DNA of 49,751 bases, the filler included, from Catajapyx aquilonaris (Eukaryota): NCBI GenBank assembly GCA_000934665.2. It is 2 parts of 2 records of this genome, joined end to end, with 100 filler letters (N's around TTAATTAATTAA, not from the genome) between each part and the next. Parts side by side here need not be neighbours in the genome. Positions count along the whole stretch, not along the records: positions 1 to 24,880 come from JYFJ02005464.1; 1 more part is not named here. One strand, written 5' to 3'. The translations under genes and the position numbers were made by a program. Below the pieces are notes generated by a model that was given only the letters and a program-made list of their open reading frames with translations, was not told where the DNA came from and ran no database searches. This document shows, piece after piece, positions 1-43,233 of the stretch (within the stretch, counting starts at the first letter, position 1; each line of letters begins with the position of its first letter).

Positions 1-559
1 CCCGGTTTGCGACATAATGAGGCGTCCCGAATGTCGGGCCCGGAAATCTGGTCACCTTATGATATGAGCCTGCTGCGTAAAACCGCAATGCTATGAGCAC
101 CTGTGGATGAGTCTTCTGGAAGGGGTCCTGCCTCTCGTAAAAGCGCCGTGTCCGTGGTACTGCTCGTTCTTCCAATAATTCGGGGTAGAAGACTAACACC
201 AGCAGGTCGTCGTAGTCGTCGTCGTCTTCCCACCTTCGCTTCCTGGCACGACGTTCCAATGCCATCTCAACCCAACTACACTGGCAGCTGCCTCCCGCAG
301 TGACTTTAAGATGGCCGCCGGGTCTGCTCGCCACCGTCCGGGTCGTTCACGTGAGCCAGAGCAGCCGTCCGGCTCACTGCCGTCCGCATTGCGTGCAAAA
401 CGACCAAAATTCAATGAAGTGTGCGACCATGAGCGGGGGGAAGATGGGCTTGGCCTACGGGGGGCGCGAAACCAGCCGGCCAATCGTGACGAGGCGCAAT
501 GCCTCATTTTTACGTCACATCGGGTTGCTCACTTCCGTACGCTTGACCAAAATACAGCC

Positions 560-955: not shown

Positions 956-1877
956 CGACACTCCAACACATATCTTATGGGTTGACAACCAGGCAATAAG
1001 ATTTGCCCTTCCTCATCAAAAAGCTGAAGCAGGAGATAAAGCACTAATGATAATAATAATATGAGCGTAGTATGCCGTTATGAAACATGGGGAAAATATT
1101 TTATTGATATAAATGCCAACTGTGCTTCTCAATAAGTGATGGAAAAAGTATGTGGTATGTTGAAAATCAATAGAATAATAAATGTAGAATAAATGTAATA
1201 ATACGAGGTAACACAAGAAAGCCAGATTCAAGAACTATAAAGAACAATAATAATTTAATGAGCCACAAAAAATATAAACCACGTTAACATTCCTAAAAAC
1301 CATTTTAAAGACTTCAGTGTTATTGTTGCAAGATGTACTACTATACAGTATGTGGTTAATTGGCTATAAGATTATGTAGAGCCTGCTTTTCCTACCTCTT
1401 CTGAATCGTAGTTGCTTCCAAATATCATTGCTTACAAAATAATAGTCAATATTTGGTCATGTGCTCTGTGTACAAAATCCTTACCCATTCTACCAACATT
1501 AGACACAAGAACGCAATTCTGCTATTGATATATCGTTCTCATCATAAGAATATCGCCTACATTAATTGACCACGTGAATTTTTTAATCTTAAAAATAGGG
1601 AAAAGACGAAAACAAACACAAACTCAATTTTTCCCCAGGTGTCGATCTTTGCATTAAACTGCCACAATCACATTTCATAATGATGCTAATTTGTTACTCT
1701 TTTATAATCGAAATAAGAAATTGCAATTAATGCTAAGGAACGTGGCTTATATACATAGCACCAAAATTCAGGCACTTTGAGACACGTCAGAGCAGAATAT
1801 ACACATAACACAGCAGACAGTTGGCCCTATTGTGATTAAATAACAGCATAACCATAATTTTTTATTTCTTTTAGAGC

Positions 1878-3645
1878 TCACATAACCATACATGAGCGCC
1901 CTGGAGACCGCTTTTTCCCCATTACAGCATCGAATAATTCGTCAGCCAACTTGACAGATGTACCCAACTCCTCGCAGTGTCTGTGGAGTGTCTTTGGGGT
2001 GGCTTCAAAGCCCAAGTGTGCACCAGCTATTGCACCTGCCATTGACCCAATGGTGTCCGTGTCTCCTCCAAGGGATATGGCGTACTGGACGCATCGCTGG
2101 AACTTATTGTCAGTCTGCAAAAAGTACAACAACAGACGTACAACCATTGTTAAAATCATAATAATGTGCAACTTGCCTTAATATTGGGGAGGCTTTCCTG
2201 AGCAGAAAGGACTGCGAATATTGCTATTGGCACTGAACCTAATGCCGTAACATCATTTCCCAAGTATTCCACTGCCAGTTTATCCACATGTCTCTCTGCA
2301 CATCTTTCGCTGGAGCTGATCTCCAGTAGTTCCTTCACTGTGTCTAGCTTCTTGGCATATGGATGAGACTTGCATGACTGCTCTGACTCCACATTCTCCA
2401 TTTTCTTCTTCAGATTGGACAGGAATTCACTTGCATTCAGGGGCTTGTTTGGGTCGGATTTCAATGCTTGATGGACAGCCAAGCACTACACAAACGAGGG
2501 GGAAAAACACTATGTATTTTAGCATCATTTGTTGAGTACATGATTTGAGTCTATTGTTGTGATAAGCGGGTAATATGGAGGGACCACTGTTTTATCCTTC
2601 AAAATATTAAGACATGCATAGCATTTCGATGCAAAACGATCTCTATTTTTGCAATAGACTCCAATATTATTCTATGGAATTGCGCATTCACATCCCACAC
2701 ACCGAATCCTCAAATTCACATTCTTTCTGAGTAACTTTGTGTTCATGAATGTTTGTTCACAAAAATTTTAAAGATAGAAAAATAAATATATTACCTGTAA
2801 AATTGCGCCATTGTACCCCAGCCTGTGAGTGTGTGTTATGAGGGTGGATGTTTTGGCTAGCTCAATCATTTTGTCCTCATTGTTTAATGCAAATAGTGCA
2901 ATAGGAGCAATTCGCATTGCACCACCATTGCCGTACGAGCCTGCTCCTCCAAATTGTAGCTTTGCAGGCCCAAATGGATCCTTCACTTTGGTTTCCTTTA
3001 GCTCATCAAACACATCCACAACATGATTACCGTAGCCTCGACGTGGGTCAGAGAAAAATTCCTTTACGAATCTGCAATGACGAGCACATGCAAATGCATA
3101 TTAGCTGATATTACAGTTCACCCATACCTTGCAATTATCTGCAATTGGTTTTAAACACTTTAAGAAGTACTTTTGCAACATCCTCACATTTTATATGACA
3201 AAGTGCACTTCCTGTCACACAATTATCGATCCACTCAATTCAGAGGCAGCAAACTAACCGTTTGGCCATATCCTTCGCATCAAAACCCCTCTTTGCCAGC
3301 AATGAACGTGCAATGGAGCGGGTCATTGCAGTGTCATCTGTGTACTCCTGCAATGGCTCTGCAAATAACAAAACATTTGAGACAACAGGTAAAAAAGAGA
3401 TGCCAGTCTGTATGCTCCGTACCTCTACTGTCAGGTCGGTTGAGCTTGTTGAAGTACTTGTTGAGCACTAAGTAGTCCACCAACTCCCACTTAAATTCGA
3501 AGAGATTTCCCAGGCAGTCTCCCATCAGGTCTCCGGCCAAGCAGCCCCTAAATTTATCAGCCAGGTACTCATCTATGTCCACTTGTGCATCATCAGAGTC
3601 TGTTGGCATCTCTTCAGATGTTGTTGGGTCACTGGACTCTGCCAT
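1878..3645 (-). CDS. ADPRHL2: ADP-ribosylhydrolase ARH3-like, copy 1 (subfamily A), ~381 aa
   Basis: Exons 3645-3423, 3358-3259, 3071-2795, 2485-2177, 2114-1878 splice to a continuous frame. Motifs KFRGCLAG..GDCLG..FE, YTDDTAMTR, GSYGNGGAMR, THTH..GYNGA.LQ and LGGDTDTIGSMAGAIAGA. Intron 4 has a GC donor. Orthology to ADPRHL2 versus the other copies is not established. Confidence 0.9.
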
Positions 3646-4959
3646 CTTCAAATGGAGTACAGACAAATACAGTTACGAGCACCAAGATTGGCAGGCGCAA
3701 GGCAAATCAGGGCAGTATTTTAGGGTCAGTGCTGTTAATCACATTCAGCCACAATAACACATCATTTCACATGAAAAGAAATGACCAATGGATTGACACA
3801 ACTGTACAACCTCACAGATGCAATGTACTGTACCAAAATGGTACAAAATATTGCACCACTGTAGTTTTGTGCATCCAGGAGTGGTAATAAACGACTAAAG
3901 CTTGCATCGTAAGAAGGAGAGGCGGAATTATATGGCATTAATTCACGTAGAACAAGTTCACTTCACCAGGGAACACAAAACAACGTGCGTATTTTGATCT
4001 TAGATTAAATTGTTGCACCAGTAACAACATACCTTCTTGGCTCGCTGGGATATTCCAGTATTTGTAAATATTATGTGGCAGCTAACAGTTCTCTGCCAGA
4101 AGCTTTGTTTACTGTGACATGTCCACTGCTGCATGTGAATGACGAATCAACATCCTGCATGTCTGTCACAATAGTATTGTTCGCTAAACACATGCCAGTA
4201 CCAGTAAGTATAATGATGATGAATGACATGTCAAAGTTGAGCATTGTCTGTTCAAGTTCCATAAAATTATATGGAGTTAATGTGCAGTGATATGAATTGA
4301 TATTTTAAAACTTACTTATATTATATTCAGCAAATACTAAATAATAATGAAGTAAATCTACATTGACATTTTAGCAAGGACAGTTTCTGAATGTCATTAA
4401 AAAAAAAGCAAATGATTGACACATGGTTGCTCAGTTAATACTATTCGGAGGACAAAGACACACAGTCATGTCGCTTAGCATATGGGCATTTTTATATACA
4501 GGCCAAAATGCCTGTAAAGTCGTTGTCCTCCTCCTCCCCCCCCCCCCTCGGGGTAAAGAATTTTTTTTAAAGAGAAATAAAAATAAAACAAGCCTGTAAA
4601 ATCTTCTGTATTTCATCATTGTTTATTTGAATGCAAAAAAATAGTGACAATAAACTTCTGACCAACAGGAACTAAATACAGGAAGTAAAACATTTACAGA
4701 CTGACATACACCGGCCAAAAGGTGTGTTTTGAATTTGGTACCAACAGTCAAAACTAGACTATTATTTTGCTAGATGTGTCCTTGGCACAGTAACTTTTGG
4801 TCTTACAGCAAAATAGATGACACTTATTTACTGAACAACAGAAAATGCTGCTAACAGTTGTCTTTGCTGTAAATATAAAGGAACAGCATAAAGACTTTCT
4901 TATCAATGAAGCAAAACAATCTTGTCTTTTACACTATAGCAAGGTTTTAAAATAAATCC

Positions 4960-6885
4960 TTACATAAGCTCACATGAGCGGCCCTTCCCCATCACGACAT
5001 GAAATAATTCGTCAGCCAACCACACAGATAAGCCCAGGTTCTCACAGTGTCTGCGGAGTGAGTTTGTGGTTGCTTCAAAGCCCAAGTGTGCACCAGCTAT
5101 TGCACCTGCCATTGACCCAATGGTGTCTGTGTCTCCTCCCAGGGATATGGCATACTGGATGCATCGCTGGAACTTATTGTCAGTCTGAAAAAATATAACA
5201 GCAGACATAAAACTGTGGTTAACGTCATAATAATGTGCAGTATACTTACCTCAATATTGGAAAGGCTTTTCTGAGCATGCAGGACTGCAAATATTGCAGT
5301 TGGCACTGAACCTAATGCTGTAATGTTATTTCCCAAGGAATCTACTGCAAGCTCATCCACATGTCTCCCATCATCCCTCTCACTGGAACTCATCTCCAGT
5401 AGTTCCTTCACTTTGTCTAGCTTCTTGGCATATGGACTTGGTCCCAAGGTCTCATCTTGAGGGAAGTTCTTCTCTGACTCTGATTCCAACTGATCAATTT
5501 TCTTCTTCAGGTAGGAGAGGAATTCAGTTGCATTCAAAGGCTCATGTGGGTTGAATTTCAATGCTTGATGGACAGCCAAGCACTGCACAAGAAAGAGGCA
5601 AAAGCATTCAAATTTTCAGTAACATTATTTTATTGAGTGCTTGAATTGACTCTAGCAAATCTCCCCATTAGTTTTTTTAAAAATGTATGTCTGTTCACAA
5701 GAGTCATATAAGGAAAGAAAAATAACACTAATTACCTGCAAAATTGCACCATTGTACCCATTCCTATGGGTGTGTGTTATGAGAGCAGATTTATGGGCAA
5801 TCTCAATTAGTTTGCCCTCATTTTTGTATGCAAATAGAGCAACAGGAGAAACTCCCATTGCACTACCGTTGCCATACGAGCCTGCTCCTCCAAACTGTGT
5901 ACTTGCAGGGCCATATGGGTCCTTCACTTTGGTTTCCTTCAGCGCCTCAAACACGTCCCCAACATGAGGGCCATAAGCTCGCATTCGATCGGAGTAAAAT
6001 TCATTTACCAACCTGCAATGATGAGCTTTCAAAGTATGTCACTATCGGTAAGTCATCAATACGAAATATTATTGCGGGAAATGAGAAACAAAATTCAGCA
6101 ACTTCTCCCTTATCCACATTTCCCAAACATCCATGTGATATAGTCATACAGAATACTGCTTTTATGGAGTCCTAGAAAACTAACCTTTCGGCCATGTCCT
6201 TTGCATCAAATCCCTTCTTTGCCACCAAGGAATGTGCAATGCAGCGGGTCATTACAGTGTCGTCTGTGTACCTCTTCAGTGACTCTGTAAATAGCAACAG
6301 GTGACGCAACAGGTGAAAATGAGATGCCTGCATGCATACTCCATACCTATGGTTTCAGACTGGTTGAGATGATAGAAGTACTCGTTGAGCACTGAGTAGT
6401 CTACCAGTTTGCACTTAACCAATTGGTTCCTAGTGTCCTAATATATATAGGACGGGCAGGAAAAAAATTATTTTTCGCAGTTATGATTATAAATCACAGA
6501 TTAATGGAGCTGATCCTCATCATCATGAAAATCTACTTTATTGAAGATACATCAAATTTCAGTGATTGCATCAGTCACAAATACAAGTTGAATGTTGGGA
6601 GAGGATGCCTTGTAACTTCTGTTATTTAAAATAATTTTACGCTGAACTATTTTTTTTCCATCTTAGTTTCTAATGCATGCCTTAAAAATATTATTAAAAT
6701 ATCATCAGTAGATCAACCTCAGGAACATGTGGGTTAAATTCAAATGGATGGCCAAGGCAGTCTCCCATCAGGGCTCCGACCAGGCAGCCCCTGAACTTGT
6801 CGGCCAGAGGGTCCATATTCACTGGTGGATCATCAAACTCCCTTGGCGTCTCTCCAAGTGTTGTGAGGTGACTGGATTCTGCCAT
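4960..6885 (-). CDS. ARH3-like copy 2 (subfamily A); exon 1 interrupted by an insertion, so either a pseudogene or rescued by splicing
   Basis: Exon 1 starts at ATG 6885, is interrupted at 6419-6737 and resumes to 6347. Then 6284-6185 (YTDDTVMTR), 6012-5736, 5582-5250 and 5184-4960 (GGDTDT), all GT-AG and in frame. Confidence 0.8.
6419..6733. mobile_element. TTAA-flanked 315-bp insertion (piggyBac-like non-autonomous element)
   Basis: TTAA at 6415-6418 and 6734-6737, with imperfect CC..GTTCCT inverted termini. Removing it restores PFEFKCKLVDY, colinear with copy 1 LFEFKWELVDY. Confidence 0.8.
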
Positions 6886-8289
6886 CTTCAAATGGAGTCC
6901 CAGGCAAAAAAAAAAAAAAATAGAGTCACCAGCACCATGGTTGACAAGCGCAAAAAAAAAATCAGGCGGTATTTTAAGCGCAGTACTATTGATCACATTG
7001 GGCCACAATAACAAACATCCCTTCAGATGACAAGAATACCCAAGTGATTGGTCTGTATGTACAGTACATTCACACAGACGCAATGGACCAAAATAATTAT
7101 ATTGAATTGTCGCACAGTGAGAACACTACTTATTGGCTCACTATGAGTGCCATTTCAGTACATGTATATGCCAAAAGGTCTCTGCAGTCTCTGCTCTAGA
7201 GCTGCATTAATATTATGTACCCGACACTACACACGGGTTTGGTGCTATAAATATATTAATAAATAACATTAATTATTTTCAAAATCTACATATGTAAGAC
7301 GAAGGTTCTTTGTTTTTTTGTTTGCAATGGCCACTGGATTTTGTTGGTGATTATCATGGAAACAGGCCGTGCGAAGAATGGGCTCCGCTTCTAGTATGCA
7401 TATTATAATACTATCTTGGTATTTGCGGAAAGTTTGCAACCCTACGGACTAAATAATATGGCAACAGGTAGAAACATCACATTCCTTGCTCTTGAGACTT
7501 TAAAATCTTTACCTCAGCAATGTAAGCATACTGTACCTCACACTAATGAATATATGGTGCCACTGTCCGCTGTTTTCAACTTCAAACCAGTACTATTGCA
7601 AATGCAAAAAACCGGTAGGAGTAGAGAAGAGAGGCACCGTCGCAGAAGGTGTGGGTGGAGGCTGTGTCTCAAACGCAGTAGGGAGGATGTATTGATTATT
7701 TGGGAGGGCACATAAAAAGCTGTAGAAGGATATCATACATCAACCTCCCCTGCAACACAATCGTGACTGTTAAATAAACATCCTGAACATCTGTCAGAAA
7801 ATTCAGAGCTATTGTTCACTAAACACACGCTAAGGTTGTATGGAGGAATTTCTCATGCAGAAAGAGTTTTAATGGGCACTCTCCCTGTTCCCATTGGTTT
7901 CTCAGGACTCGCACCTTCCCATCCGCAATCAAATTCCATGACCATTGGCCAGGCAATGGAGCAAGTCAGGTTTTGGAAAGAAAATAGCCTAAAAGGTCCC
8001 AGTGGACTTATCATGTATACATTATGTTCCACTGGAACTAAAAAATCTTTACACTCAACAGTAACCACACCTCACATTTACGAATATGGTGCCGGTGTAA
8101 GCTGTTATCTACTTCAAACCCTCACTATTGAAAATGAAAAAAATAAACAGCACATTCTGCTGCTTCCCAAGATTGCTACGTAGAAGAATATTTGGTTATA
8201 GAGCCATAGCAGTCTAGGCAGTGTACTGGCTCAAGAATATCTGATGGCTTGGCATTAACTGAATAATTAATAATAAAGAAACAGTTATG

Positions 8290-10397
8290 TTAATGTCCCT
8301 TCTTTCGAGCCACATGAAAGAGCTTGTCAGCCAAGGAAGACACGTCATCCAACTCCTCACAGTGGCGCAAAAACACAGCAGGGACTTCTTTCTCGCCAAA
8401 GCATGCGCCAGCAATAGACCCTGCCATTGCTGCAATTGTGTCGGTGTCACCTCCCAGCTCAATGGCATATCGAATGGCTCTCACCGCAGATGTCTCACCC
8501 TGAGGGTTTAAAAAAAGCAATATTACTGATTGTCCAAAACTTGTAATCAGAATGGTCACCTTGATCCCTGAGTCTGGAAGCTGTGCTCGTAGGAAGCAGT
8601 AGATGGCAGTCACCACAGATCGAAGGGCAGTTTCCTCATTTCCAAGGGATGAAATCACATGTGCTACATCAACAGAATTCCCTTTTTGCAGCAAAGATTG
8701 AGCTTTACGCAGCTGGGACACAAATGGCATTGCCCGGATTCTGGGAATTAATATTGATCACATCACAAACACTTTGCAATAATGTCAAAAAATACAAATA
8801 ATGAATCTCATAAGTTGTCAGTTCTGTTCAAAGGCACCAAATCAGGGTGTTGAACTTACTCATTGTCAGGACGTTCCACTGTCATCATGGCACTTATTAG
8901 GTCGGAAATAAATGTGTGAGGGTTAATTGGTTCCGTAGGGTTGGTGTTCAGAGCTTGGACAACAGCCAATGCCTGTGAAGTATTTAAAATGTTAAATTGT
9001 ACTTTTAAGATCTGCAAATCAGATGGATTCATCTGCTTGATACCTGATGGCACATATGCATTGTTACTCAAACTAAAATTGTCTAAATGAAAGTGAGATC
9101 TTATGTTATCATATGATGCACATTTAAAATGTCACTGTTTGTTAATCATCACATCCTTCTCCACTTTGAGTGTAGGAGTACAAAATGACACCAAACAATG
9201 TAAATTCTTCAATCATAAAGGTATTTCTGGTACTGTCCAATGAGGACCAGCTGTTACCTGCAGTATAGCGCCATTAATTCCATCCCGATGGGCATGAGTG
9301 ATGCGTGCACTGTCTGTCACTAGAGATTTCATCTCCTTAACATCTTCATGGTACAGGAGTGCCACAGGTGCTACTCTCATGGCACCACCATTGCCAAAGG
9401 AGCCACAGCCATTGAACTGCTCATGTGCCGGTTTGAATGGCTCGCTGCTGTCACTCCGTAGCTGGTGAAACACGGTCCTGACGTGAGCCCCGTACAGCCT
9501 ATTTGGTTGAGGTCGGAAGTAATCTTCAGCAAAGTTGGCTGCAACCTCTTCAGGAATCAGGGCACCGTTGTTTTTAACCAGAGACCAACCCAGTGTTCGG
9601 GTCATTGCAGTATCATCCGAGTAATGAAGAATGGTCACTAACATGCGAAAGTAAAAAGTTAAACATAGTGTGTTCAATTTACAATTGAGACAATGTGATC
9701 AAAAATAAATGTGGTCAGCATACAAGTGAAAGCCATTAAGTCAATTTTGTGTTATTTATATCACAATGTTACGTTTTTTCTGCTCTATCACACGCTGAAG
9801 TCAGTTTAGTCCTAAAGATGCATAATGAGTCAACAAGCCAAGATTTGGGTAGGAGGGATGGGTCTTGACTTGTATGTAAGCAAGTGCAAGGTCAAATCTT
9901 TGGTTTCGATTAAGTTTATATCAAAACTGTGTTTTTTTATTATTATTTATTTTTAACTTGGTCACTTTCACTTGTGTGCCGACAATATAATTATGATGTA
10001 TGGTAACAAGCAGCACCTATTAAATTGAATTTTATTATTTTTTAAAATTTCTTTTACCCCATGCTGGGCCATCAAGGTCCTTATTAAATTGAATTAAAAG
10101 TAACTAAATTAAATTATTAAACCTGCAGCTCAACACGATATCACATGATACATAAATACTTCCTCAGAAACATCTTGTACAGTTTATCTTCAAGGTTCAC
10201 CTTGAATCTTGAACACTGTAGTATAACAGGTGCATTATACCTTCTTGTTCTGGGTCCCCATAGGTAGCAAAAAAGCTGTCAATTTTTTCTTGAGCAGCAG
10301 CTGGACGCAACTCAAATGGGAATCCTAAACAATCCCCCAACAAAACTCCCATCAGACATCCTCGGAATTTTGAATGCAGCGTCTCTGCATCTGCCAT
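8290..10397 (-). CDS. ARH3-like copy 3 (subfamily B), ~346 aa
   Basis: Exons 10397-10241, 9637-9258, 8972-8860, 8740-8560, 8499-8290, GT-AG, continuous frame. Motifs KFRGCLMG..GDCLG.PFE, YSDDTAMTR, GSFGNGGAMR, THAH and GGDTDT. Confidence 0.9.
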
Positions 10398-10460
10398 GAT
10401 TTGCTTTGGTTCACCACTGCACTGGCACAACACCTTACAGGCTTACGCAATATTATTACT

Positions 10461-10560
10461 TGGACTTCCTTCTAGAGGGCCAGACCAGTTGGTTGGGTGG
10501 TGTGACTCAAGGTTGGTGTGACGACCCTGGAATAAATAAAAGCTTACAAACAAAAAAAAA
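10461..10560 (+). mobile_element. Short retroposed 3' fragment (AATAAA + A tail)
   Basis: ~100 bp ending AATAAATAAAAGCTTACAAACAAAAAAAAA, flanked by near-direct repeats CAATATTATTACT / CAATATTACTACT. Absent from the duplicated segment at ~12205-12220. Confidence 0.5.
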
Positions 10561-10963
10561 CAATATTACTACTTTGTAGTAACACGTAGTAATCAGTACC
10601 ACACCACCATCTTGTCAGGATATAACTTATCACTAAGGACGTTAGGCTACTTTTTAAAAAGAGGAAATTGTTTTGATAAGATAGGCTGTGAGGCTGTGAG
10701 GGTGCAGAGGTCTACTCCAATCATTGTTAATGGGGGTAATATATTGCTTCCATTTGCACTAGATGACTAGAAGAAATGTCCTATTCACTGAGGGCAAGGT
10801 TTCATTTTTTTAAACAGGCCATTCATACACTGTTTAAACACAGGATACAGGGACACAAAGGTTTACTACATGTCACATTTGGTTGTACAATACAAGAATT
10901 TATTGCATGTCTACTGTGCCATGACAGCTTTAGTAGGGTAACAGTTCTCACCAAAATCTGTTA

Positions 10964-12167
10964 TTATTTTTTCAAGGTGTTCCTTTGGGATATTTGAAAC
11001 AGCTCATCAGCCAGGCGACTTACGTCATCCAACTCTTCACAGTGTCTCAAAAGAACAGGAGGGACGCTTTTCTCTCCAAAGCAAGCTAGCCATGGTTCCA
11101 ATAGTGTCCGTGTCACCTCCCAGCTCAATGGCGCATCGGATTGCTCTCACCACCATGGTCTCACCCTGATTTTTTAAAAAATTAACGTTTAATATTTGAA
11201 TAATAATAATATATAATAATAATAATAACTGGGGTAGTGCTTTCACCCCCAACTGGGGGTATATCACACGTTCCTTTATTTTTGTTATTATTATTTTTAC
11301 AGTAGCTGGTGCAGGGACAAGGTAAGGATAGGAAGGGGGGACACTGGTGCATGTGCAATCTCTCATGTTGGGGGTCGTGTGCAGTCCCCCAGGGGGTCCG
11401 TTCGCCATAGATGGCCCCCCTAGATGCGGGTCAGAAACCCCCGACTGACCCGCATCTCCTCCAGGACAGGGAAAGGAGGGAAGCGGCTGTGGCCTATATT
11501 ACGGTACGATCCCGGAAATTATTCCTGGAGTGACCTTGGGAAACCACAGAAAACCAAGGTCAGGATCGCCGGCCTCCGGGATTCGAACCCAGGACCTCCC
11601 GATTAGCAGTCGGACACCATATCCACTACACCACTACTGCTTCGGTGTTTAATATTTGAATATTTATCACATGAGTAGAGGTTGAACCCACCTTGATCCC
11701 AGAGTCTAGTAAGGTTGCCCTCAGAAAGCAGTAGATGGCCGTGACAACCGATGTCGGAGCAGTTTCTCCATTTCCTAAAGTGTCGACCACTTGTTCTGCA
11801 TCTACACATTTGGCTTGTTGCAGCAGTTTGTCAGCTTCTTGCAGCAGTGACACGTACAAGGTTTTTGTTTGCCTGTTGAAGATTCAATGTCTCCATGTTA
11901 CCATGAAATTAGTACTGCCAAGTAAAATCACCGTAACAATAGGTGGAAATATAGACTGTCTAATAACGGTTTACACTCTACCTTGTAGCAGGCTGCTCAA
12001 GTTCCGTCATGGCGTCTATAGGGGTCCCCATAGGCAGCGAAAAAACTGTCAATTTTTTCTCGTGCAGTACATGGACTCAACTCAAATGGGAATCCTAAAC
12101 AATCTCCCAACAAGACGCCCAACATACATCCTCGGAATTTTGAATGCATCGCCCCAGATTCTGCCAT
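10964..12167 (-). pseudogene. Chimeric ARH3-like pseudogene, copy 4
   Basis: A copy-3-like exon 1 (MAESGAMHSKFRGC..GDP) is fused out of frame at ~12020 to the end of a copy-5-like exon 3. The SDDT/GNGG exon is absent, the last exon has a frameshifting deletion after TIGTMA, and the last intron holds a SINE. Confidence 0.85.
11203..11646 (-). mobile_element. tRNA-derived SINE
   Basis: The minus strand begins with an A box (TGGTGTAGTGG) and B box (GGTTCGAATCC) and ends in a (TTA)n tail. 16-bp TSD GTTTAATATTTGAATA at 11187-11202 and 11647-11662. Second copy at 26139-26568. Confidence 0.85.
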
Positions 12168-13642
12168 GATTTGCTTTGACTCATGACTGGCACAATGCAT
12201 TACACAGTAATTATTACTTTGCAGGAAGTCAGTAACAAACCACATGAGGAAGTAACTAATCACCAAGGATGTCAGGCTACCTAAAAGAAAGGAAATGTTT
12301 TGATAAGGTACTGTGTGAAATTACGTTTTTTGAATTTCCACACCTTCCCTGCACATGACTTTGTGATGTAGTAACTATACAATTGCAGTATAGCAGAACA
12401 GGTGACCAGTGCATCAAACAGCATGCAAATAAATTATACTTGCAGACAACAGTGGAACATCTTTGGTTGATCAGAAGCAACTAGAAGAGTGACAATGTGA
12501 GATTTCGCACTATTGGTCCAGTTTGGCACCATATTTGACCAGAAAAGTCGAGCTACTTTCAAACGAGGCTGCAGAGGGTGTACAGTACTGGAACCATTGT
12601 TAAAATAATTGCTTCGATGCACACTAGATGAAATTCCCTGTTCAGTGAGGACAAGGATACCTTTTAAAGGCGTCATTTAAGCAATTATGTTTTAACACAA
12701 CATGCAGGATAGCACAAATTTATTGCACATAATACTTGCTAGTAGTGTACAAGAATACTGCATTGCATGTGTGCCTACTTTTTGCATGTGCCATACAGGC
12801 AATAATGGTGCTCCATAACAGAAAAAAAACAGTGCATGATATGGTGCAGAAAAGCCCACTCGTATTGGAGTGTCAGACAGTGTAGCTCACTGAAATCATT
12901 TCTATTGCACAGGGCAGTGTTGACAACAAATCTGACAATGGCATTACTCATGAGTACATGCATGTGTGGATAGCGTCATATGTTTACAAAACAACATCTG
13001 GTACTCTTATCACAACTTGCAGAAAATTAAGTAACATTGCAGGGACTTACAAGAGCACTTGTGCTGAAAATATGACATAATTGGTTGCAGGAGATGCTCC
13101 GTCTAACTAACTTGGAGGATAATAAAATAGCACATCAGATGTAATGGTTTTTATAATAATACTATGTAACATAGGCAGCTCATGTTACATTTTTATCAAG
13201 CACACTGCATTTGATTATTAAAAATCAGTTACATCAGCTTTTGCAATTTTTCTCAGCTGTAAATGTCCCTTACCAGTAAACGCTAACAGCTTGCCACCAG
13301 AGGAGTCCTGACAACATCAGTAAATATCCCCTACGCAAGGAGTAAATATGGTGACCGAATTACAGCAAGGAAAATTGTCAAGCTCCTCTTCATTCATTTC
13401 TGTACCTTTAATTTTTGAAATGGTGGTCTTAGATCTAATAAATCAACAATTAGGCCATTCTCATCTTTGTGATCAAATTGTGTTCAAATCACGTGTTGAT
13501 CGTAATTCGTTGTTGAATCAACAATTAAGCACGATAAAAGACACGAATGTTACAGGTTACAATCTTCAGATTCTCATGCCTTATGTATGGTCTGATTAAT
13601 GCTTAGCTCAAGCAGGGTAACAGTTCTCACCAAAAGCTGTCA

Positions 13643-14279
13643 CTATTTTTTTAAAGCCTTCCTTTGGGATATTTGAAACAGCTCATCAGCCAGGCGACTT
13701 ACGTCATCCAACTCTTCACAGTGTCGCAAAAGAACAGCGGGGACACTTTTCTCCCCACAGAAAGCTCCAGCAATGGCTCCTGCCATGGTTCCAATAGTGT
13801 CCGTGTCACCTCCCAGCTCAATGGCGCATCGGATTGCTCTCACCACCGTGGTCTCACCCTGAAGTCATTTTTAAAAAAATAACGAGGCTTATTAGAAAAT
13901 TAAGCTTAAATATCTGAATAATTATCACACAAGTAGATCTTGAACCCACTTTGATTCCAGAATCTTGTAAGGTTGCCCTCAGAAAGCAATAGATGGCCGT
14001 GACAACCGATGTCGGAGCAGTTTCTCCATTTCCTAAAGTGTCGACCACTTGTTCTGCATCCACAGATTTGCCTTGTTGCAAGAATTTGTCAGCTTCTTGC
14101 AGCAGCGACACATACAAGGGTCTTGTTTTCCTGTTAAAGATTTTTGTTAACCTGTTGAAGATTCAATGTGTCTAGGTTACTAAGAAATGTATTACTCCCA
14201 AGTGCAACCTCCCTGATAATAATATAGGTGGAAATGTAGCTCTAATATCAAGCTTTACAAAGGCTAGATGATCACAATA

Positions 14280-14348
<69 letters not shown>

Positions 14349-15320
14349 GTGATGTCCACATGAACAGTGATATCAAGAGGTGCAGGGTAAGAAGTTAATT
14401 ACACTCTGCTGATAGCAGGTTGCTCAAGTTTCATCATGGCATCTATTAAACCAGCAAGGAATTCTGAGGTGTTGATTGTTACATCAGAATTAGTGTGTAG
14501 AGCTTGCATAATGGCCAGTGCCTGTGGGTGAAACACATCATATAGAAATGGGCCGTGAAATTAATTGCACACTGCGGTTTGTAATGTAGAAGCAAGCTCT
14601 TCACTTTACTGTACTGAAGCGCCTGATTGTACCTGCAATGTCGCTCCATTTATTCCATCACGATGTGCATGAGTGATACGTGTGCAGTCTCGGACATTGG
14701 CTTTCAACTGATCTACATTCTCATGGTACAGGAGTGCCACAGGTGCTACTCTCATGGCACCTCCATTGCCAAAGGAACCACTTCCATTGAACTGCATCTG
14801 GGCAGGCTTAAATGGATCGCTGGAATCTGCCTTCAATCTGCTAAACACAGCTCCAACCGCAGCACCATAAAGTCTCTCAGGTTGAGGACGGAAGAAATCC
14901 TTAGCAAAATTGACTGCTACATCTCTTGGTATCAGGACACCATCGTTTTTCACTAATGACCATCCCAGTGTTCGAGTCATCGCAGTGTCATCCGAATAAT
15001 GAAGAAGGCTAACTGTTTAATATGAAAACAAATGTAAAATTACAACACTACCTTGCTTAAAATGTGATTTGGCTATGATTCTAGCCAAGTGACATGGTAT
15101 TTGACTTACTGTATGGTAATATTACATTTGATTTACCTGGTGCATTACGCAGTCATGTTGATAACCTACCTTCTTGTTGCGGATCGCCATATTTAGAGAA
15201 AAAATTATCAATCTTCCTTTGATGAGCAGCAGGGTGCAGCTCAAACGGGTAGCCCAGACAATCGCCCAGCAAAGCACCCAGGAGGCACCCTCTGAATTTG
15301 TCGTGAAGACACTCGCTCAT
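13643..15320 (-). CDS. ARH3-like copy 5 (subfamily B), ~348 aa
   Basis: Exons 15320-15170, 15012-14633, 14521-14403, 14130-13950, 13858-13643, continuous frame. YSDDT, GSFGNGGAMR, THAH and GGDTDT are intact. Confidence 0.9.
14279..14346. repeat. (ATT)n microsatellite
   Basis: Uninterrupted ATT run in intron 3 of copy 5. Confidence 0.95.
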
Positions 15321-15764
15321 GGTGTGTCGTTCAACTTGATCAGCAAACCAAAATCTCCTGTTCCTCTTTACGCTGCTACGTGCCACTGGATCAGCTTCAG
15401 GCCAGACGTGCACCTAAAAGCAAAAGTCTATGTAGAAAATATAAACACACAACCCGGATGGGGTGCAATTACATGTTGTACATGGCTGACCTCGTTACTG
15501 ACTGACACATCCCAGATGTTGCAGTTGCATTGTGGCTATTTATGAAATAACACAGAAAATCACCGGCTCCCACCAAAGGGTTTAGGGCTGGTTTTAGACT
15601 AGTTTTTGGGAGACTAATCTGACAATAAAGTCGTGTGCGCCGCCATGTTTGAAAAAACAAGGTTGCCAGATGAAGAAATAAGACCGATGACGTCATTTAA
15701 AAAAAATTCAAACTGTAATGCGGGAGATATTTTACAATCATTTTTTCTACATTAAGCAGACAGT

Positions 15765-18038
15765 TCATTTCTTTTTGGCGCTGGCTGCTGGCTTCTTCCC
15801 TTCTGCTATCCTGAACAGTTCGTCGGCCAAATGAACGACGTCGTCAGTTTTCTCACAGTGACGCAGAAGATTCGAAGGTACACTTGATTCGCCCAAATAT
15901 GCTCCAGCAATTGTCCCTGCCATGCTTCCGATGGTGTCTGTCTGTCCTCCTAGCTCCATGGCACATCTGATGGCTCTCACCACTGTTGTCTCACCCTGTG
16001 CCCATATAGATAAAAGACGAAAATGTTATTATCGTACTAAACCCACAGTAGAATGGAGACCTACTTTGATGCCCGAGTCTGTCAAAGTTGCTCTAAGGAA
16101 GCAGTAGATGGACGTGACGACAGACTTCGGAGGTGTGTCTCCATTTCCCAAAGTTTCGACTACCTGCTTTGCATCCAGTGACTTGCCTTGTTGCAAGAGT
16201 TTGTCAGCTTTTTGCAGCAGCGTCACGTACAGAGTTGGCTCATCAGATCTGGTGGACATTCAAATATAAGATCACCAGTATGAATCATTACATATTGCAT
16301 TTTGCAGCATTTGGTGAGGCAAATTGGAAACACTTTTGTAATAATTAGTGTACTTTCGATTGCCAGAAAACAGTTTGTGTAATACATGTTCAACATGACT
16401 TCACCTTAAAAGCACCTACAAACTGATTAGTTAGTAACTCTACAGAACCGTGTTTCGCTATTAAGATGTTAAGTGCTCAGTTTGCAAGGACAGGTACTAC
16501 ACAACGTCAGATGTGGAACGAAAAGGGAGGATGCCATTACTCTCTGGTTGACGGTGGGCGTTCCACTTTGATCATGTCGTCCATTAAGCCGGAAATAAAT
16601 GCTCCGGCGTCGATCGTCCCGTTTGGGTCGGCGTGTAGTGCTTTTACGACAGCCAGTGCCTGCGCACAAAAAGAAACCTCTTACATTAAGTTGTCCACTC
16701 ATTTCATCCTCAACGTTGCCACAAACAAACGACAATACTTGTTTGTTTGTCCAGATTTGGCGGCTGGCTTTCTAGAGCTAACCCGTTGCCAAATTTTAGC
16801 AACATTCTAATACATGATGTTTCTCTCCATCGGATGTTTGTCCGACCCGTACCGCGCTGTATTTACCACTTAATACTATTTTTCGCGCATAGATGGCGCA
16901 CCATTCCCCTGCACACTCCTGCCACTCTCAAGCCATGCGTGTGATAGGGGTACTATCAGGTCGGACAAACATCCGACGGAGAGAATAAGCGGATTGCTGG
17001 ACCTGCAGTATTGCTCCTTTGATGGCGTCTGGATGTGCGTGAGTGATTCTTGCTGAGTCTCTGACCGCTCTCTTCATGGCTCCAGCATCCAAATGATGGA
17101 TGAGCGCCAGAGGCGAGATTCTGGTGGCGGCACCGTTTCCCAAAGAGCCTGTCCCATCCAGATGATCTTGTGCCGGCTTGAAAGGGTCGCCGGATCTGTC
17201 CGAAAGCAATTTGCTGAACACGTCTCCAGCAGTAGCCTCGTACATTCTGTCGTGCTGATGGGGTCGATAAAAATCGTCGGCCAAATCGACCGACACTTCT
17301 CTGACCACCAGAGAACCATCGTTCTGCACCAGGGACCAACCCAGGGTCCGGGTCATTGCCGTGTCATCCGAGTAGTGCAGTCCCGACACTTTTTTATTAT
17401 TGGAAAGGCAGAAAATGCGAAGGGTTATAACCAGCACAGTTTGTACGGTTTGAAATTACACTCATCATGCCATTGTTGCCACTGGTAATAAATCAGTTAG
17501 AACAGTGTCATATGTAAAGCGGAAATATGCAGGGTTATAACTAGCTTTACAGTATGAAATTACAGTCACGCCGGACACCACCGATCGTTATGAAGAGTAT
17601 GGAATGAGCTCAGGTTATTACTGCTTCTGCAGCGTTTATACTAATAATAATAATTAATACTGTAATTTGGAGAGATCTGCTTGGGATGAAATACACACAA
17701 ACAAAATCGTAGAGTGAAACTTGCTAGATTAACACATCACATATCTTATCGGTCTTATCACCACAGATATTTCCTGAAAGCGACTGAACTGTGACGTTTC
17801 CTCGCAGACATTGCAGGTATGTAGTTCCTCATTAAATAAATTTAAAAAATATATATATTCTCGAATGAGAGCTGTAAATACCTTCTTTAGTGTTGGGGTT
17901 GGCGTAGGTATTGAAGAATCGATCAATCGTTTCTTGAGGAGCAGCAGGTTGCGTCTCAAATGGAAACCCAAGGCAATCCCCCAGCAAACCACCCAAGAGG
18001 CATCCTCGGAATTTGGCGTGCAGTAATTCCAGCTCCAT
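15765..18038 (-). CDS. ARH3-like copy 6 (subfamily B, divergent active site), ~358 aa
   Basis: Exons 18038-17882, 17388-17003, 16659-16541, 16248-16065, 15995-15765, continuous frame. YSDDT is retained, but the motifs read GSLGNGAATR and GGQTDT. The exon 2 acceptor (AAAAAAG) is weak. Confidence 0.85.
16821..16985. mobile_element. Small inverted-repeat element (MITE-like) in copy-6 intron 2
   Basis: TTCTCTCCATCGGATGTTTGTCCGACC (16821-16847) is inverted at 16959-16985 with one mismatch. Confidence 0.65.
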
Positions 18039-19088
18039 TTCGAGTCGTGTATAGATTCAAAGCAGAGAGACACACAGCAAGCACCTCAGCTTATTCTTTT
18101 TCTCTTGCACCGTCGGAGCGTCTATAATTCACGTCTGCACAGAGACAATGAAGAGTGATATCGACGGAGCTTGTTGGCACAGCATCTGAGCTACTTATCC
18201 TCATTCCCTACTGAACCAATCAGTTTCCAGAGAGATATTGTGTGAGTCACGGTTTTAGGAATATCAGTGAGAGTATGATTGCACCAAATGCTTTTCATGC
18301 TGTTACTCGGGAGATTTTGAAGATAATATCTGCAGGATAGTGGTTATATATACATAATGGCACCAAATCAATTTGAACAATTCAGGTTTAAATATATTTA
18401 CAAGAAACGTAAAGTCCAGACGACGCCATGAGCACCAAGTGTATAAAAGCATTACTATTGTATATAACCACTCTTACGTATTAATTTGTGTCCAATATAT
18501 TAGTACAGTAAAAAGCCGCTCATGCACGCCTCGCAGTCATTTTAAATAAAATATGGGAGCTGAAATTAATTATGCTGCATGAAGTGACATGTCACTGCAA
18601 TGCGCTCTTCTACAGTATGCATGACAGCGTTGGTGTTGTCTTTGACGTGTATGCAGATTTGCAACCCCAAAAAATGCATACCACGCCTACACGAAACAGT
18701 TTATATCCTGCGTACTGGTAATAGCAAATTAATTAGGGCCTGATTATGTGCACTTACAAAATTATATGAAATGCAGCAAGTAAATTCCCAAACAAAATTA
18801 TCTGCTCATACTAAACCATCACAAATTGTCTGACATTATAAAAGCCATTAGGGGTTATACGACAAACATCTCATATTTTATTATAACATTCCGTGAGGCC
18901 TTTATATAATGACGAAGTGCAGTTGGTGGACAAATAAGTGCTGATAGCAATATATTTGAGGCCATGTTGCTGGGTCCCGTATTATGCATTATATGCTATA
19001 CAGTGAGTAATAATAGATGGTGATGATGTCGGGCAGTTTGTTGTTCCAGGAGCGCTGTAATAATCCCATCGTCTGGCGCCTGTTGTGC

Positions 19089-21091
19089 TCATAGGAGCGG
19101 ATCAAAGGCGGTCAGGGACCTGCAAATGCCTGCGTCCAGACGGCACCCTGTTAGGAATTCGTCCAGCGTCACTACCCCGTCTCGGTTCAGGTCCAGCTTC
19201 TGTAATTACACGCATAATTTTGTTTTTGGCAAGGTCGCATCGAAATGAGCATTAAACGGGGTATATAAAAGTACCTGACCTGAAAAAGCACTTCGACTCG
19301 TTCCCTGAGATCCGAGTCCGGCAATGGTGCGACACATCGTCCGAGTAAAGAGTGGACAGCGGCCACTACCATACCCAGCTCGTCTCTGGTCACCTTCCCA
19401 TCTCCGTCCAGGTCATACAGTGTGAACACCCATCGAAGACGTTCCTCTGGAGAACCTCGAGCCAGAACGGACAGGCCCAGGACAAACTCCTCGAAGCTCA
19501 ACAGGCCCGTTTGGGCTTGAGAAAACGTGTTGAAGACGTACCGGGAGTACGGACTGGCACTAGCTAAACAGGTCATACACCAATTTATATAGCAGTACAC
19601 TCCTCAAACAATGATTTATTAAACGGAATACTAGCCTCCGCTTGGGAAGAACCGTCCGTAGATGTCCCTAAATGCGTCCTCTTTGACCACTCCTGTTGGA
19701 CACTCGGCCTTGAAGCTTCTGTAGATGCGCTTCAGCTCAGATTCGGAGAATCGGGTCTGTCGGGTCAAGGATCGGAGGCTGTCGGGTCTGTACCGAGGCT
19801 CTTCTTCCTCCAGCTCCGAATCTGTGGAAGAAACCACCGAATAATCTCGTTTCAGTTTCCAAACCATTAGTGATTAATGCATTTCGGATTATCACTGCAG
19901 GGGGCGTAATAATAAGGATGTGACAAGGACACTGTTTTTGTATTCATAAAGGCCAGGAAGGGTGTAAATGAGAATATTCGATTTTCACTTGTGCAGCACC
20001 GATATTAGAAGGGGTGGGAGGATGCAAATGTGCAAAGGGTTCTGTATATGAACAGGTCTCAGCATTAATGACCCATACACATTACATATTGGCTTCAAAA
20101 TATGAAAATAAATGACAGACTCCTGTTCCAATTGCGCTAATTGCCGGTGTAACTTGATAAAGACGGACTTTAAAATGGCAAACGTCAGAAACATGCACTG
20201 CGTTTCATTCAAACCGGAAACCGATTGAAGTGCTGACAGAACTATAAGGGCTGAAGCAATTTGGTTCCATTCGGAGTTAATGTAAATCCCGTGCAACTAA
20301 CTGCTGTCCCATATAACCTAACACTTGAACCAAAATTGAGCTACACTAGGTTTTGGACAGCTCTTCAAATACTTCTGGCAGACGCGACACGGCATTGCAC
20401 TAATGACACTAAATTGATTAACAAACACTGGGGGAACCGCTCTTTACTAAAAATGCAATTCACTACTAAAAATATTTCGATGAGTGAAAATTCTATGCAA
20501 ACAAAGCTATAGCACTACAATCATTTTCTGCTGCGTATGTTGCGAGACTTAAACAGTGAATAAATCACTAAATCACTGAAAGAACTGCAGGGGGTCGAAT
20601 CTTAAATTTCTTTTGTCCAGGAGCAAAGTTTGGACTCCAGACTTTCTTCTGGAGTACAAAGTCTTGAAGTGCTTAATTTTTTAATTACTGGGTTTAATGC
20701 AGGACCAACTGGAGTGCAAACTTTTGCACTCCAAGGCTCAGTTTGGGAGTGCAGATGACAATTTCGGGAATGCAAAATTGCGAATATTTCGACCCCCCCT
20801 GGAACTGCTTTTTTTTATCAAAAATCGCCTAAGTCCATTAATTTCACAGCAATTGAGCAATATAATTCAGACGAGTGACGCGCACTGAATGTAATGACCT
20901 CAATGTCTCTCTCTCTTACCACTCCAGGCTTTGACTCCGCTCCAGGCCTGCCTTGCAAAACTCCTTATCTTCCTGCACAGCGATTGGTCCCTGCTGCTGC
21001 TGTCCACCTCTTTGTCCCTGTCCCTGTCCCTATTCCTGTCCCTCTGAGCCTCTCTGTCCGACCCAGAATCAGTGCTCATCACCCCGTACAT
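19089..21091 (-). CDS. KCNIP: Kv channel-interacting protein (KChIP)-like neuronal calcium sensor, ~250 aa
   Basis: Exons 21091(or 21079)-20920, 19821-19632/19636, 19559/19563-19280, 19199-19089. Motifs RYRPDSL..L...TRFSESELKRIYRSFKAECPTG, EF-hands DLDGDGKVTRDE and DLNRDGVVTLDE. The first exon is less certain. Confidence 0.88.
20588..20801. mobile_element. MITE-like element in KChIP intron 1
   Basis: Termini CAGGGGGTCGAA / TTCGACCCCCCCTG with internal GGAGT(G/A)CAAA repeats. No clean TSD. Confidence 0.5.

Positions 21092-43194: not shown

Positions 43195-43233
<39 letters not shown>

What the first reader, a model, noticed from the sequence alone, without database searches (positions are those of the whole stretch)
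1878..18038. Tandem expansion of six ARH3-like ADP-ribosylhydrolases with diversified active sites
Seen: six co-oriented paralogs in 16 kb plus relics, four with intact frames and clearly diverged protein sequences. Known: ARH3 is a single-copy Mg2+-dependent eraser of serine-ADP-ribosylation in mammals. The same fold has been co-opted as jellyfish J1-crystallin and as bacterial DraG and Tri1 anti-toxin hydrolases. Inference: a birth-and-death array may be a lineage-specific de-ADP-ribosylation repertoire, for example a defence against microbial ADP-ribosylating toxins or a specialisation for different linkages. This is the best candidate for an undescribed system in the window.
Basis: partly seen in the sequence, partly recalled or inferred. 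Interest (0 to 1): 0.85.

Follow-up and report, generated by a model that had tools for sequence, protein, structure and literature searches.

The report
Tandem family of ARH3 hydrolase genes
An arthropod-like animal genome carries six neighbouring copies of the gene for ARH3, an enzyme that removes ADP-ribose marks from proteins; four are intact and transcribed, one of these has lost key active-site residues, and two are dead, so this is a real but fairly ordinary gene-family expansion.

Summary
Six co-oriented minus-strand ARH3-like genes (PF03747) fill 1878-18038. Four splice into full frames: A 381 aa, C 346, E 345, F 354. B is broken by a 319-bp insertion in exon 1. D is a mosaic relic without the catalytic exon.

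A run of unrecorded kind (X1) holds contigs that skip 6 of the 16 predicted introns of A, C, E and F at GT/GC..AG sites, so all four are transcribed and spliced.

There are two old subfamilies, A/B and C/D/E/F, with 40-45% amino-acid identity, saturated dS and different intron positions. Pairwise dN/dS is 0.15-0.44, which indicates purifying selection.

A, C and E keep every Mg2+ ligand of human ARH3. C, E and F share G115->L/L/M and T76S. F also has D314Q, F143L, Y149L, M155T and G117E, and evolves faster than E, so it looks like an ARH2-style pseudoenzyme.

No public protein is closer than 54% (C exon 2) or 66% (A exon 3).

"Birth-and-death array" is supported. "Diversified active sites" holds mainly for F. 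The anti-toxin defence idea has no evidence, and earlier scan notes report many tandem arrays in this genome. Verdict: new members of a known family, moderate interest.

The parts
1878..3645 (-). Copy A: intact ARH3 gene, 381 aa. Exons 3645-3423, 3358-3259, 3071-2795, 2485-2177, 2114-1878. The most canonical copy.
   Evidence: Model. PF03747 on exons 3 and 5. All catalytic residues present; 1 of 70 conserved columns departs. Intron 4 has a GC donor and is spliced in run X1, with one letter different from the window.
4960..6885 (-). Copy B: sister of A (71% aa identity), disrupted. Exon 1 carries 319 extra bases, followed by an in-frame stop at 6696-6694. The rest of the frame is open.
   Evidence: A/B DNA alignment. 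No GT/GC..AG pair in the ranges scanned removes the insert in frame. X1 contig 6596-6893 runs unspliced through the insert's 5' end. Substitutions R156G, G153S and G115A.
6415..6733 (-). Insertion in exon 1 of B: a 315-bp AT-rich body (6733-6419) plus a duplicated TTAA (6418-6415; original TTAA at 6737-6734).
   Evidence: Absent from A at the homologous site. Sequence read. That TTAA duplication is typical of piggyBac-type elements is recalled, not tested.
8290..10397 (-). Copy C: intact divergent ARH3 paralog, 346 aa. Exons 10397-10241, 9637-9258, 8972-8860, 8740-8560, 8499-8290.
   Evidence: Introns 1, 2 and 3 are skipped exactly in X1 contigs. RNA chose my second-ranked donor (10241) for intron 1, not the top-ranked 10217. 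PF03747 E = 2.9e-26. ARH3 structures E about 1e-25.
10964..12167 (-). Copy D: pseudogene relic. Pieces: exon-1-like 12167-12021; an 11-aa exon-3 scrap 12019-11987; exon-4-like 11859-11653; exon-5-like 11168-11088 and 11086-10967, separated by a frameshift. Exon 2 (the TDD and GNGGAMR motifs) is absent.
   Evidence: tblastn and three-frame reading. Mosaic origin: the 5' end is closest to C (84% nt), the 3' part closest to E (86% and 80% nt).
11307..11646 (.). Repeat (SINE-like) inserted in D's last intron. A second copy lies at 26211-26563.
   Evidence: 80% identity over 360 nt. Summed contig depth of 3954 in this bin of run X1. No Rfam or Pfam match.
13643..15320 (-). Copy E: intact divergent ARH3 paralog, about 345 aa. 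Exons 15320-15166 (or 15170), 15008 (or 15012)-14633, 14521-14403, 14121 (or 14130/14151)-13950, 13858-13643.
   Evidence: Model. Intron 4 is skipped in an X1 contig. The boundaries of introns 1 and 3 are predicted only and may shift by a few residues. All catalytic residues present.
15765..18038 (-). Copy F: intact, transcribed, with a degenerate active site, 354 aa. Exons 18038-17882, 17388-17003, 16659-16553, 16248-16065, 15995-15765.
   Evidence: Intron 4 is skipped in an X1 contig with 0 differences. GGQTDT aligns with GGDTDT of 6d36_C, so the change is D314Q. Also F143L, Y149L, M155T, G117E; 11 of 70 conserved columns depart. Faster than E: 55 versus 21 unique changes, p about 1e-4.

Best explanation
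This is a lineage-specific tandem family of ARH3-type ADP-ribosylhydrolase genes in an animal (arthropod-like) genome, shaped by ordinary birth-and-death evolution.

History (inferred):
- An old local duplication produced two subfamilies, A/B and C/D/E/F, which have since changed intron positions.
- C, E and F separated long ago (dS above 1).
- A and B separated more recently (dS about 0.45).
- B was then knocked out by a mobile-element insertion.
- D arose as a C-like/E-like mosaic, probably by unequal crossing-over, and decayed.

Function (inferred, not shown):
- A is the canonical Mg2+-dependent eraser of serine-linked mono-ADP-ribose, PAR ends and O-acetyl-ADP-ribose.
- C and E are still active di-Mg2+ hydrolases. 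Their pocket is slightly remodelled (G115->L, Y149->F, T76->S), and they have subfunctionalised in expression, location or preferred substrate.
- F has lost the Mg-B ligand D314 and both adenine-stacking aromatics, yet stays under constraint. It is most likely a non-catalytic or weakly catalytic pseudoenzyme, comparable to vertebrate ARH2.
For: Shown here:
- Family assignment: PF03747 on every copy; ARH3 is the best solved relative.
- Four full reading frames with consensus splice sites.
- 6 of the 16 predicted introns of A, C, E and F are skipped in contigs of run X1 at GT/GC..AG sites. That is at least one spliced junction per intact gene.
- dN/dS: A-B 0.39-0.44, C-E 0.16-0.18, C-F 0.21, E-F 0.15-0.20. 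dS is 0.42-0.45 for A-B and 1.2-1.7 among C, E and F. It is saturated between subfamilies.
- Intron positions differ. A/B have an intron after 'AKR' that C, E and F lack. C, E and F split the A/B exon 4.
- Trees: A/B and C/E/F are each 100%-supported clades with no foreign sequence inside, among 73 and 37 rows.
- Catalytic residues: E41, T/S76, D77, D78, D314, D316 and T317 are kept in A, B, C and E. F has D314Q, F143L, Y149L, M155T and G117E.
- F versus E relative-rate test: 55:21, p about 1e-4.
- B insertion and in-frame stop. D mosaic structure and defects.

From papers:
- Adenine stacks between Phe143 and Tyr149 (PMC7050489, passages).
- ARH2 has no demonstrated activity and differs at critical residues (PMC9738213, passages).
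Against: - No enzyme activity, substrate or location was or could be tested, so 'active' for A, C and E and 'inactive' for F are inferences from residues.
- The kind of run X1 is not on record. That it is cDNA is inferred from the intron-skipping joints, and contigs cannot rank expression.
- Only 6 of 16 introns have a listed joint. E's introns 1 and 3 and F's introns 1-3 rest on prediction.
- dS above 1 makes the omega values of C, E and F imprecise. Branch-specific omega for F was estimated only by hand from pairwise distances (about 0.19).
- All three C/E/F copies carry a bulky residue at G115, next to the distal ribose. That could mean a real change of substrate rather than simple subfunctionalisation.
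- Monophyly of the five copies is borderline (AU p = 0.061). A pre-lineage origin of C/E/F is therefore not excluded; it groups weakly with barnacles and Daphnia at 80/88.
- Whether another, more canonical ARH3 exists elsewhere in the genome is unknown, because no genome is held.
Confidence: 0.65

Rival explanations
1. Specialised de-ADP-ribosylation repertoire. The C/E/F subfamily has neofunctionalised towards other ADP-ribose linkages or targets, possibly as a counter to microbial ADP-ribosylating toxins or viral factors. F acts as a non-catalytic ADP-ribose or target binder or regulator.
For: - Long stem branch to C/E/F (0.74-0.85 changes per site, against 0.42-0.46 for A/B).
- C and E are faster than A with a crab outgroup (58:30 and 56:28, p about 0.003).
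- All three carry G115->L/L/M and Y149->F/F/L near the ADP-ribose.
- Selection has kept them since (omega 0.15-0.21), and they are transcribed.
- ARH3 is listed as single-copy in all but one of the animals that have it in Table 2 of PMC4245714 (passage), so four live copies is unusual.
Against: - C and E retain every metal ligand and depart from only 1 of 70 conserved columns each.
- The rate excess over A is not significant with barnacle or shark outgroups (p = 0.058 and 0.21).
- There is no infection or tissue expression data. The proteins begin directly at the conserved core or with an acidic extension.
- No immune gene is linked in the window.
- Earlier scan notes (unchecked) report many tandem arrays in this genome, so expansion by itself is not a signal of defence.
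Confidence: 0.25
2. Non-enzymatic recruitment. One or more copies (above all F) serve a structural or binding role unrelated to ADP-ribose, as J1-crystallin does in jellyfish or ARH2 in vertebrate muscle.
For: F lacks D314, F143 and Y149 and has 11 of 70 conserved columns changed. It nevertheless keeps an open frame, is spliced, and shows pairwise omega of about 0.15-0.21.
Against: F keeps E41, S76, D77, D78, D316, T317, the GNG core and TH182, so residual ADP-ribose or metal binding is possible. There is no expression-level or tissue information. The J1-crystallin comparison is recalled, not tested here.
Confidence: 0.08
3. Artefact: the copies are assembly duplications or uncollapsed haplotypes of one gene.
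For: None found, apart from two chimeric contig joints between copies in X1 (2122->5337 and 9345->14721). These show that short identical stretches can confuse assemblers.
Against: The copies differ by 29-60% at the protein level, and the subfamilies differ in intron positions. Separate X1 contigs match C and F with 0-3 differences (table 8).
Confidence: 0.01

Closest known systems
Animal ARH3 (ADPRS/ADPRHL2), e.g. human ARH3 structures 6D36 and 2FOZ, Latimeria ARH3 6G1P
   Same: Same Pfam family, and the best solved match. Similar length (345-381 aa against 363). Copies A, C and E keep E41, T/S76, D77, D78, D314, D316, T317, the GSxGNGGAMR loop and TH182. Exon 2 of C is about 50% identical to vertebrate and arthropod ARH3.
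   Different: Here there are six tandem copies, whereas Table 2 of PMC4245714 (passage) lists a single copy for all but one of the animals that have ARH3. Subfamily C/E/F has a long stem branch, its own intron pattern, and G115->L/L/M. No copy is closer than 54% (C exon 2) or 66% (A exon 3) to any public protein. Activity is untested.
Vertebrate ARH2 (ADPRHL1), the catalytically silent ARH paralog
   Same: Like ARH2, copy F is a retained, transcribed paralog whose metal-binding motif has changed (GGQTDT in place of GGDTDT). This predicts loss of the normal activity (ARH2 description in PMC9738213, passages).
   Different: F is derived from ARH3, not from the ARH1/ARH2 branch. It has changed only one of the seven critical residues, plus the adenine stack. 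No tissue or function data exist for F.
Two-copy ARH3 duplications in other invertebrates (e.g. Cylas formicarius, Larinioides sclopetarius, Glandiceps talaboti: two 'ARH3-like' proteins on contigs of the same length)
   Same: These are lineage-specific duplicates that cluster by species in the tree. ARH3 duplication therefore recurs in animals.
   Different: Those listings show pairs, not six loci, and the pairs sit on short branches. I did not check that they are tandem; only equal contig lengths are given. No case with an old, divergent subfamily was seen among the rows listed.
Bacterial DraG and the chain 6dre_A (both deposited as ADP-ribosyl-(dinitrogen reductase) hydrolases; that 6DRE is the Serratia Tri1 immunity protein is recalled)
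   Same: Same fold family. Both are weakly matched by exon 5 of F (E = 6e-3 and 4e-4).
   Different: Far weaker than the ARH3 matches (E about 2e-9). Nothing in the sequence points to arginine specificity or toxin immunity.

Membership tests
ADP-ribosylglycohydrolase superfamily (Pfam PF03747) | Significant match to the family profile | tested here: met
   Exons of A, B, C, E and F score 41.8-93.2 bits, above the 26.2-bit cut-off. D's exon 1 alone scores 19.8 bits (below the cut-off), and D's exon 4/5 ORF gave no hit because of the repeat and the frameshift.
ARH3 subclass | Closest solved relatives are ARH3, not ARH1, DraG or Tri1 | tested here: met
   11 of 12 PDB sequences hit by C's exon 2 are ARH3 (E from 1.6e-25 to 5.7e-24). 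ARH3 at E about 2e-9, against 4e-4 and 6e-3 for the two chains deposited as dinitrogenase-reductase hydrolases. No ARH1 chain is listed.
ARH3 subclass | Di-Mg2+ site: E41, T76, D77, D78, D314, D316, T317 (PMC8141533 Table 2; PMC9738213 Figure 1 legend) | tested here: met
   A and B have all seven. C and E have all seven with T76S, which keeps the hydroxyl; 13% of the 144 reference ARH3 proteins also differ from T here. This row applies to A, B, C and E only.
ARH3 subclass (copy F) | Di-Mg2+ site: D314 present | tested here: not met
   F has Q at the position aligned to D314 of 6d36_C (chain index 317, offset 3). The D314E and D314A mutant chains 6d3a_C and 7l9i_C differ at the same column.
ARH3 subclass | Adenine stacked between two aromatics, F143 and Y149 (PMC7050489) | tested here: met
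   A and B have F/Y; C and E have F/F, still aromatic. F has L/L, so this feature is not met for F.
ARH3 subclass | Mg2+-dependent hydrolysis of Ser-ADPr, PAR and O-acetyl-ADP-ribose | not testable with these tools
   Needs recombinant protein assays.
ARH3 orthologue group of animals | Placement inside the animal ARH3 tree as the species' orthologue | tested here: inconclusive
   Both window clades sit inside the animal ARH3 radiation, but on an unresolved backbone. Monophyly of the five copies is not rejected (AU p = 0.061). A/B have the shorter stem and the higher identity to other arthropod ARH3 (up to 66% in exon 3).
ARH2-like pseudoenzyme (by analogy, for F) | Changed metal-binding motif together with retention under selection | tested here: met
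   D314Q. Pairwise omega of 0.15-0.21 against C and E. A spliced transcript contig. Loss of activity itself is not testable here, and F is not a sequence member of the ARH2 clade.

The most novel reading that the evidence does not exclude
The C/E/F subfamily is a neofunctionalised clade of ADP-ribosylhydrolases not described before. It is restricted to a poorly sampled arthropod lineage. The bulky residue at position 115 and the changed adenine stack retune which ADP-ribose linkage or target is erased. F has become a catalytically dead ADP-ribose or target binder that regulates its neighbours. Together with the canonical copy A, these genes form a private multi-eraser set, possibly used against ADP-ribosylating toxins or viral factors.
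Probability: 0.2. Interest if true: 0.6.

Novelty: new member of a known kind. Interest (0 to 1): 0.35.

Why it matters
ARH3 is the only known eraser of serine mono-ADP-ribosylation in mammals. In one published survey it is listed as single-copy in all but one of the animals that have it, and it has been lost outright in some insects and nematodes (PMC4245714 and PMC10238386, passages).

A lineage that instead keeps four live, old paralogs offers a natural experiment on how this fold tolerates change. One paralog has lost the Mg-B ligand and the adenine stack. Three carry a bulky residue beside the scissile ribose.

If C and E have shifted specificity, they would be handy reagents and would widen the known substrate space of ARH enzymes. 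If F is a pseudoenzyme, it would be a second, independent ARH2-like case. As it stands, the locus is a well-behaved gene-family expansion, not a new system.

Tried and rejected
- Whole-genome copy count: no genome is held for this window, so I cannot say whether further ARH3, ARH1 or PARG genes exist elsewhere.
- RNA holders: the look-up of sequencing runs listed no holder on record as RNA, only one run of unknown kind (X1, share 0.21). I treated it as cDNA-like only because its contigs skip introns. Depth was not used to rank genes. Parts without cover are not interpreted.
- Close relatives: three word-based searches and one exhaustive HMMER search of 1.84 billion cluster representatives found nothing closer than 54% for C exon 2, 50% for E exon 2 among short proteins, and 66% for A exon 3. 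Cluster representatives at 50% identity could hide closer members.
- Rescue of copy B: I looked for a GT/GC..AG pair that removes the exon-1 insertion in frame while keeping the A-like exon 1b, scanning donors at 6770-6690 and acceptors at 6480-6395. None was found. The only open models skip exon 1b and have no RNA support.
- Literature: searches for ARH3 or ADP-ribosylglycohydrolase with gene duplication, expansion, tandem, paralogs, arthropod or invertebrates listed no paper on ARH3 arrays in arthropods. This covers only the held open-access library, and supplementary tables (for example Supplementary Data 1 of PMC10238386) could not be opened.
- Structure prediction and complex prediction were not run. 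The spliced proteins are not contiguous translations of the window, so I did not hand them in.
- Pfam on six other long ORFs of the window and Rfam on the whole window gave nothing.
- My impression that the ORF at 2-346 resembles a Harbinger-type transposase is recalled and unsupported.
- Earlier findings by sequence or near this place: none.

Full report
**What is there.** The window is animal DNA with short introns; no whole genome is held for it. A stop-to-stop ORF list and tblastn with the window's own exons and with fetched ARH3 proteins show six ARH3-like loci. All are on the minus strand, and they run from 18038 (ATG of F) to 1878 (stop of A), which are exactly the finding's limits. Exon translations of all six match Pfam PF03747: 41.8-93.2 bits for A, B, C, E and F, and 19.8 bits, below the cut-off, for D's exon 1. 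The best solved relatives are ARH3 chains (E about 1e-25 for C's exon 2; about 2e-9 for F's exon 5). The two chains deposited as dinitrogenase-reductase hydrolases match far more weakly (E = 4e-4 and 6e-3).

**Gene models.** I chose splice sites by scoring all in-frame GT/GC..AG pairs near the tblastn blocks against a guide protein, then assembled the CDSs.
- Four copies give uninterrupted frames: A 381 aa, C 346 aa, E about 345 aa, F 354 aa.
- A/B have five exons, with an intron after 'AKR'.
- C, E and F lack that intron and have another inside what is exon 4 of A/B.
- E's introns 1 and 3 have alternative sites that would change a few residues.

**Copy B.** B is 71% identical to A. It carries 319 extra bases in exon 1: a 315-bp AT-rich body plus a duplicated TTAA, at 6733-6415. 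This brings an in-frame stop at 6696-6694. No canonical splice pair in the ranges scanned removes the insert in frame while keeping the rest of exon 1.

**Copy D.** D keeps only pieces resembling exon 1, exon 4 and exon 5. It lacks the catalytic exon 2, has a frameshift in exon 5, and has a repeat inserted at 11307-11646, with a second copy at 26211-26563. Its 5' end is closest to C (84% nt) and its 3' part closest to E (86% nt). It therefore looks like an unequal-crossover mosaic (the mechanism is inferred). A relaxed tblastn found no further relics in the window.

**Transcription.** Only one public run held the stretch: X1, kind not on record, kept as contigs, share of words 0.21. Laid on 1800-18200, its contigs skip C introns 1, 2 and 3, E intron 4 and F intron 4 exactly at CT..AC ends, which read as GT..AG on the gene strand. 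They also skip A intron 4. The A joint was reported with one extra letter; a script showed that it equals my predicted GC-AG junction plus a single-letter difference from the window in the last exon-4 codon.
- That makes 6 of the 16 predicted introns of the four intact genes, with at least one per gene.
- For C intron 1 the RNA chose my second-ranked donor (10241).
- For B no spliced joint is listed, and a contig (6596-6893) runs unspliced into the insert.
- Two joints join different copies (2122->5337 and 9345->14721, the latter sharing 41 letters). I read these as assembly chimeras.
- Contigs cannot give expression levels, and X1's being cDNA is my inference from the skipped introns.

**Divergence and selection.**

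| Pair | Amino-acid identity | dS | dN/dS |
|---|---|---|---|
| A-B | 71% | 0.42-0.45 | 0.39-0.44 |
| C-E | 69% | 1.24-1.35 | 0.16-0.18 |
| C-F | 59% | 1.48-1.56 | 0.21 |
| E-F | 64% | 1.39-1.66 | 0.15-0.20 |
| A/B vs C/E/F | 40-45% | saturated | not usable |

These are old duplicates kept by purifying selection, not a recent burst. F has evolved faster than E (55 versus 21 lineage-specific changes with C as outgroup, p about 1e-4). C and E are faster than A with a crab outgroup (p about 0.003), but not significantly so with a barnacle (p = 0.058) or a shark (p = 0.21). B is not significantly faster than A.

**Active sites.** I aligned the five models with 144 full-length animal ARH3 homologues fetched.
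- Of 70 columns at least 90% conserved, A, C and E each depart at 1, B at 4 and F at 11.
- I mapped residues to human numbering through the alignment to 6d36_C and its D314E and D314A mutant chains and through a seal ARH3 in the alignment.
- A, B, C and E keep E41, T/S76, D77, D78, D314, D316 and T317.
- F has D314Q, F143L, Y149L, M155T and G117E.
- C, E and F share G115->L/L/M, T76S and Y149->F/F/L.
- B has R156G, G153S and G115A.
- According to passages I read, D314A loses Mg-B and binds ADPr 44-fold more weakly, D314E eliminates Mg-B, and the acidic ligands are critical for hydrolysis (PMC8141533). Adenine stacks between Phe143 and Tyr149, and Glu41 is crucial (PMC7050489). ARH2 shows no activity and differs at the critical residues (PMC9738213).
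- So A, C and E are predicted to be active, and F is predicted to be impaired or inactive. This is inference only.

**Relatives.** No public protein is close.
- The best hits for C's exon 2 are 52-54% identical: unnamed records, barnacles, ticks and insects.
- E's exon 2 reaches at most 50% among short proteins.
- A's exon 3 reaches at most 66%.
- In trees of 73 rows (quick) and 37 rows (careful), A/B and C/E/F are each fully supported clades with no foreign member. Their stems are 0.42-0.46 and 0.74-0.85 changes per site, on an unresolved arthropod/invertebrate backbone.
- A tree that forces the five copies together is 8.4 log-likelihood units worse (AU p = 0.061), so a single local origin is neither shown nor rejected.
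- Several other invertebrates list two ARH3-like proteins on contigs of equal length (Cylas, Larinioides, Glandiceps). Duplication of ARH3 therefore recurs, but I saw no six-locus case in those listings.
- Table 2 of PMC4245714 (passage) lists ARH3 as single-copy in all but one of the animals that have it. PMC10238386 (passages) reports its loss in nematodes, Lepidoptera and most Diptera.
- My paper searches listed nothing on ARH3 arrays in arthropods. Supplements were closed.

**Context.** The only nameable neighbour is an EF-hand gene at 19.2-19.9 kb. Earlier notes of this scan (AI notes, untested here) describe many other tandem arrays in the same genome, and one PARP12-like gene elsewhere. 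Tandem expansion therefore seems to be a habit of this genome, which weakens any special reading of this array.

**Verdict.**
- The 'birth-and-death' reading is supported.
- 'Diversified active sites' is true for F, subtle for C and E, and false for A.
- The defence or 'undescribed system' reading has no support so far.
- Most likely this is an ordinary lineage-specific ARH3 family with one canonical enzyme, two divergent but probably active paralogs, one ARH2-like pseudoenzyme, and two dead copies.

Noticed in passing
window 19187-19873, minus strand: Two exons of an EF-hand calcium-sensor gene lie just upstream of copy F (Pfam EF-hand_1/7/6, E about 1e-8). By recall, the sequence resembles Kv-channel-interacting / neuronal calcium sensor proteins.
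   Followed up: partly
window 11307-11646 and 26211-26563: Two copies of one repeat, 80% identical over 360 nt. The bin holding the first copy reaches a summed contig depth of 3954 in run X1 with many loose ends, so this is an abundant, transcribed interspersed repeat. No Rfam or Pfam match.
   Followed up: partly
window 6415-6737: The insertion that breaks copy B is flanked by a TTAA direct repeat and has loosely similar inverted ends. This suggests a small cut-and-paste element. No second copy is present in the window.
   Followed up: partly
window 9345 and 14721: A contig of X1 joins copy C to copy E across a stretch of 41 letters that fits both. This long identical tract between paralogs with dS above 1 lies in the most conserved part of exon 2. 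It could reflect strong constraint or a small gene-conversion tract.
   Followed up: no
window 2122 to 5337: One X1 contig joins the 3' exon of A to exon 4 of B, with 20 unmatched letters between them. It may be an assembly chimera or a rare read-through or trans product. Unexplained.
   Followed up: no
window 14271-14355 and 43193-43237: Long trinucleotide (ATT/AAT-type) microsatellite inside intron 3 of copy E, with a similar run on the other strand at 43.2 kb.
   Followed up: no
window 2-346, minus strand: An open frame running off the window start reminded me of Harbinger/PIF-type transposase N-termini, but Pfam found no family.
   Followed up: partly
window 21837-21844, 24881-24924, 24937-24980, 34095, 40035: Runs of N (98 in all), which are small assembly gaps outside the array.
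   Followed up: no
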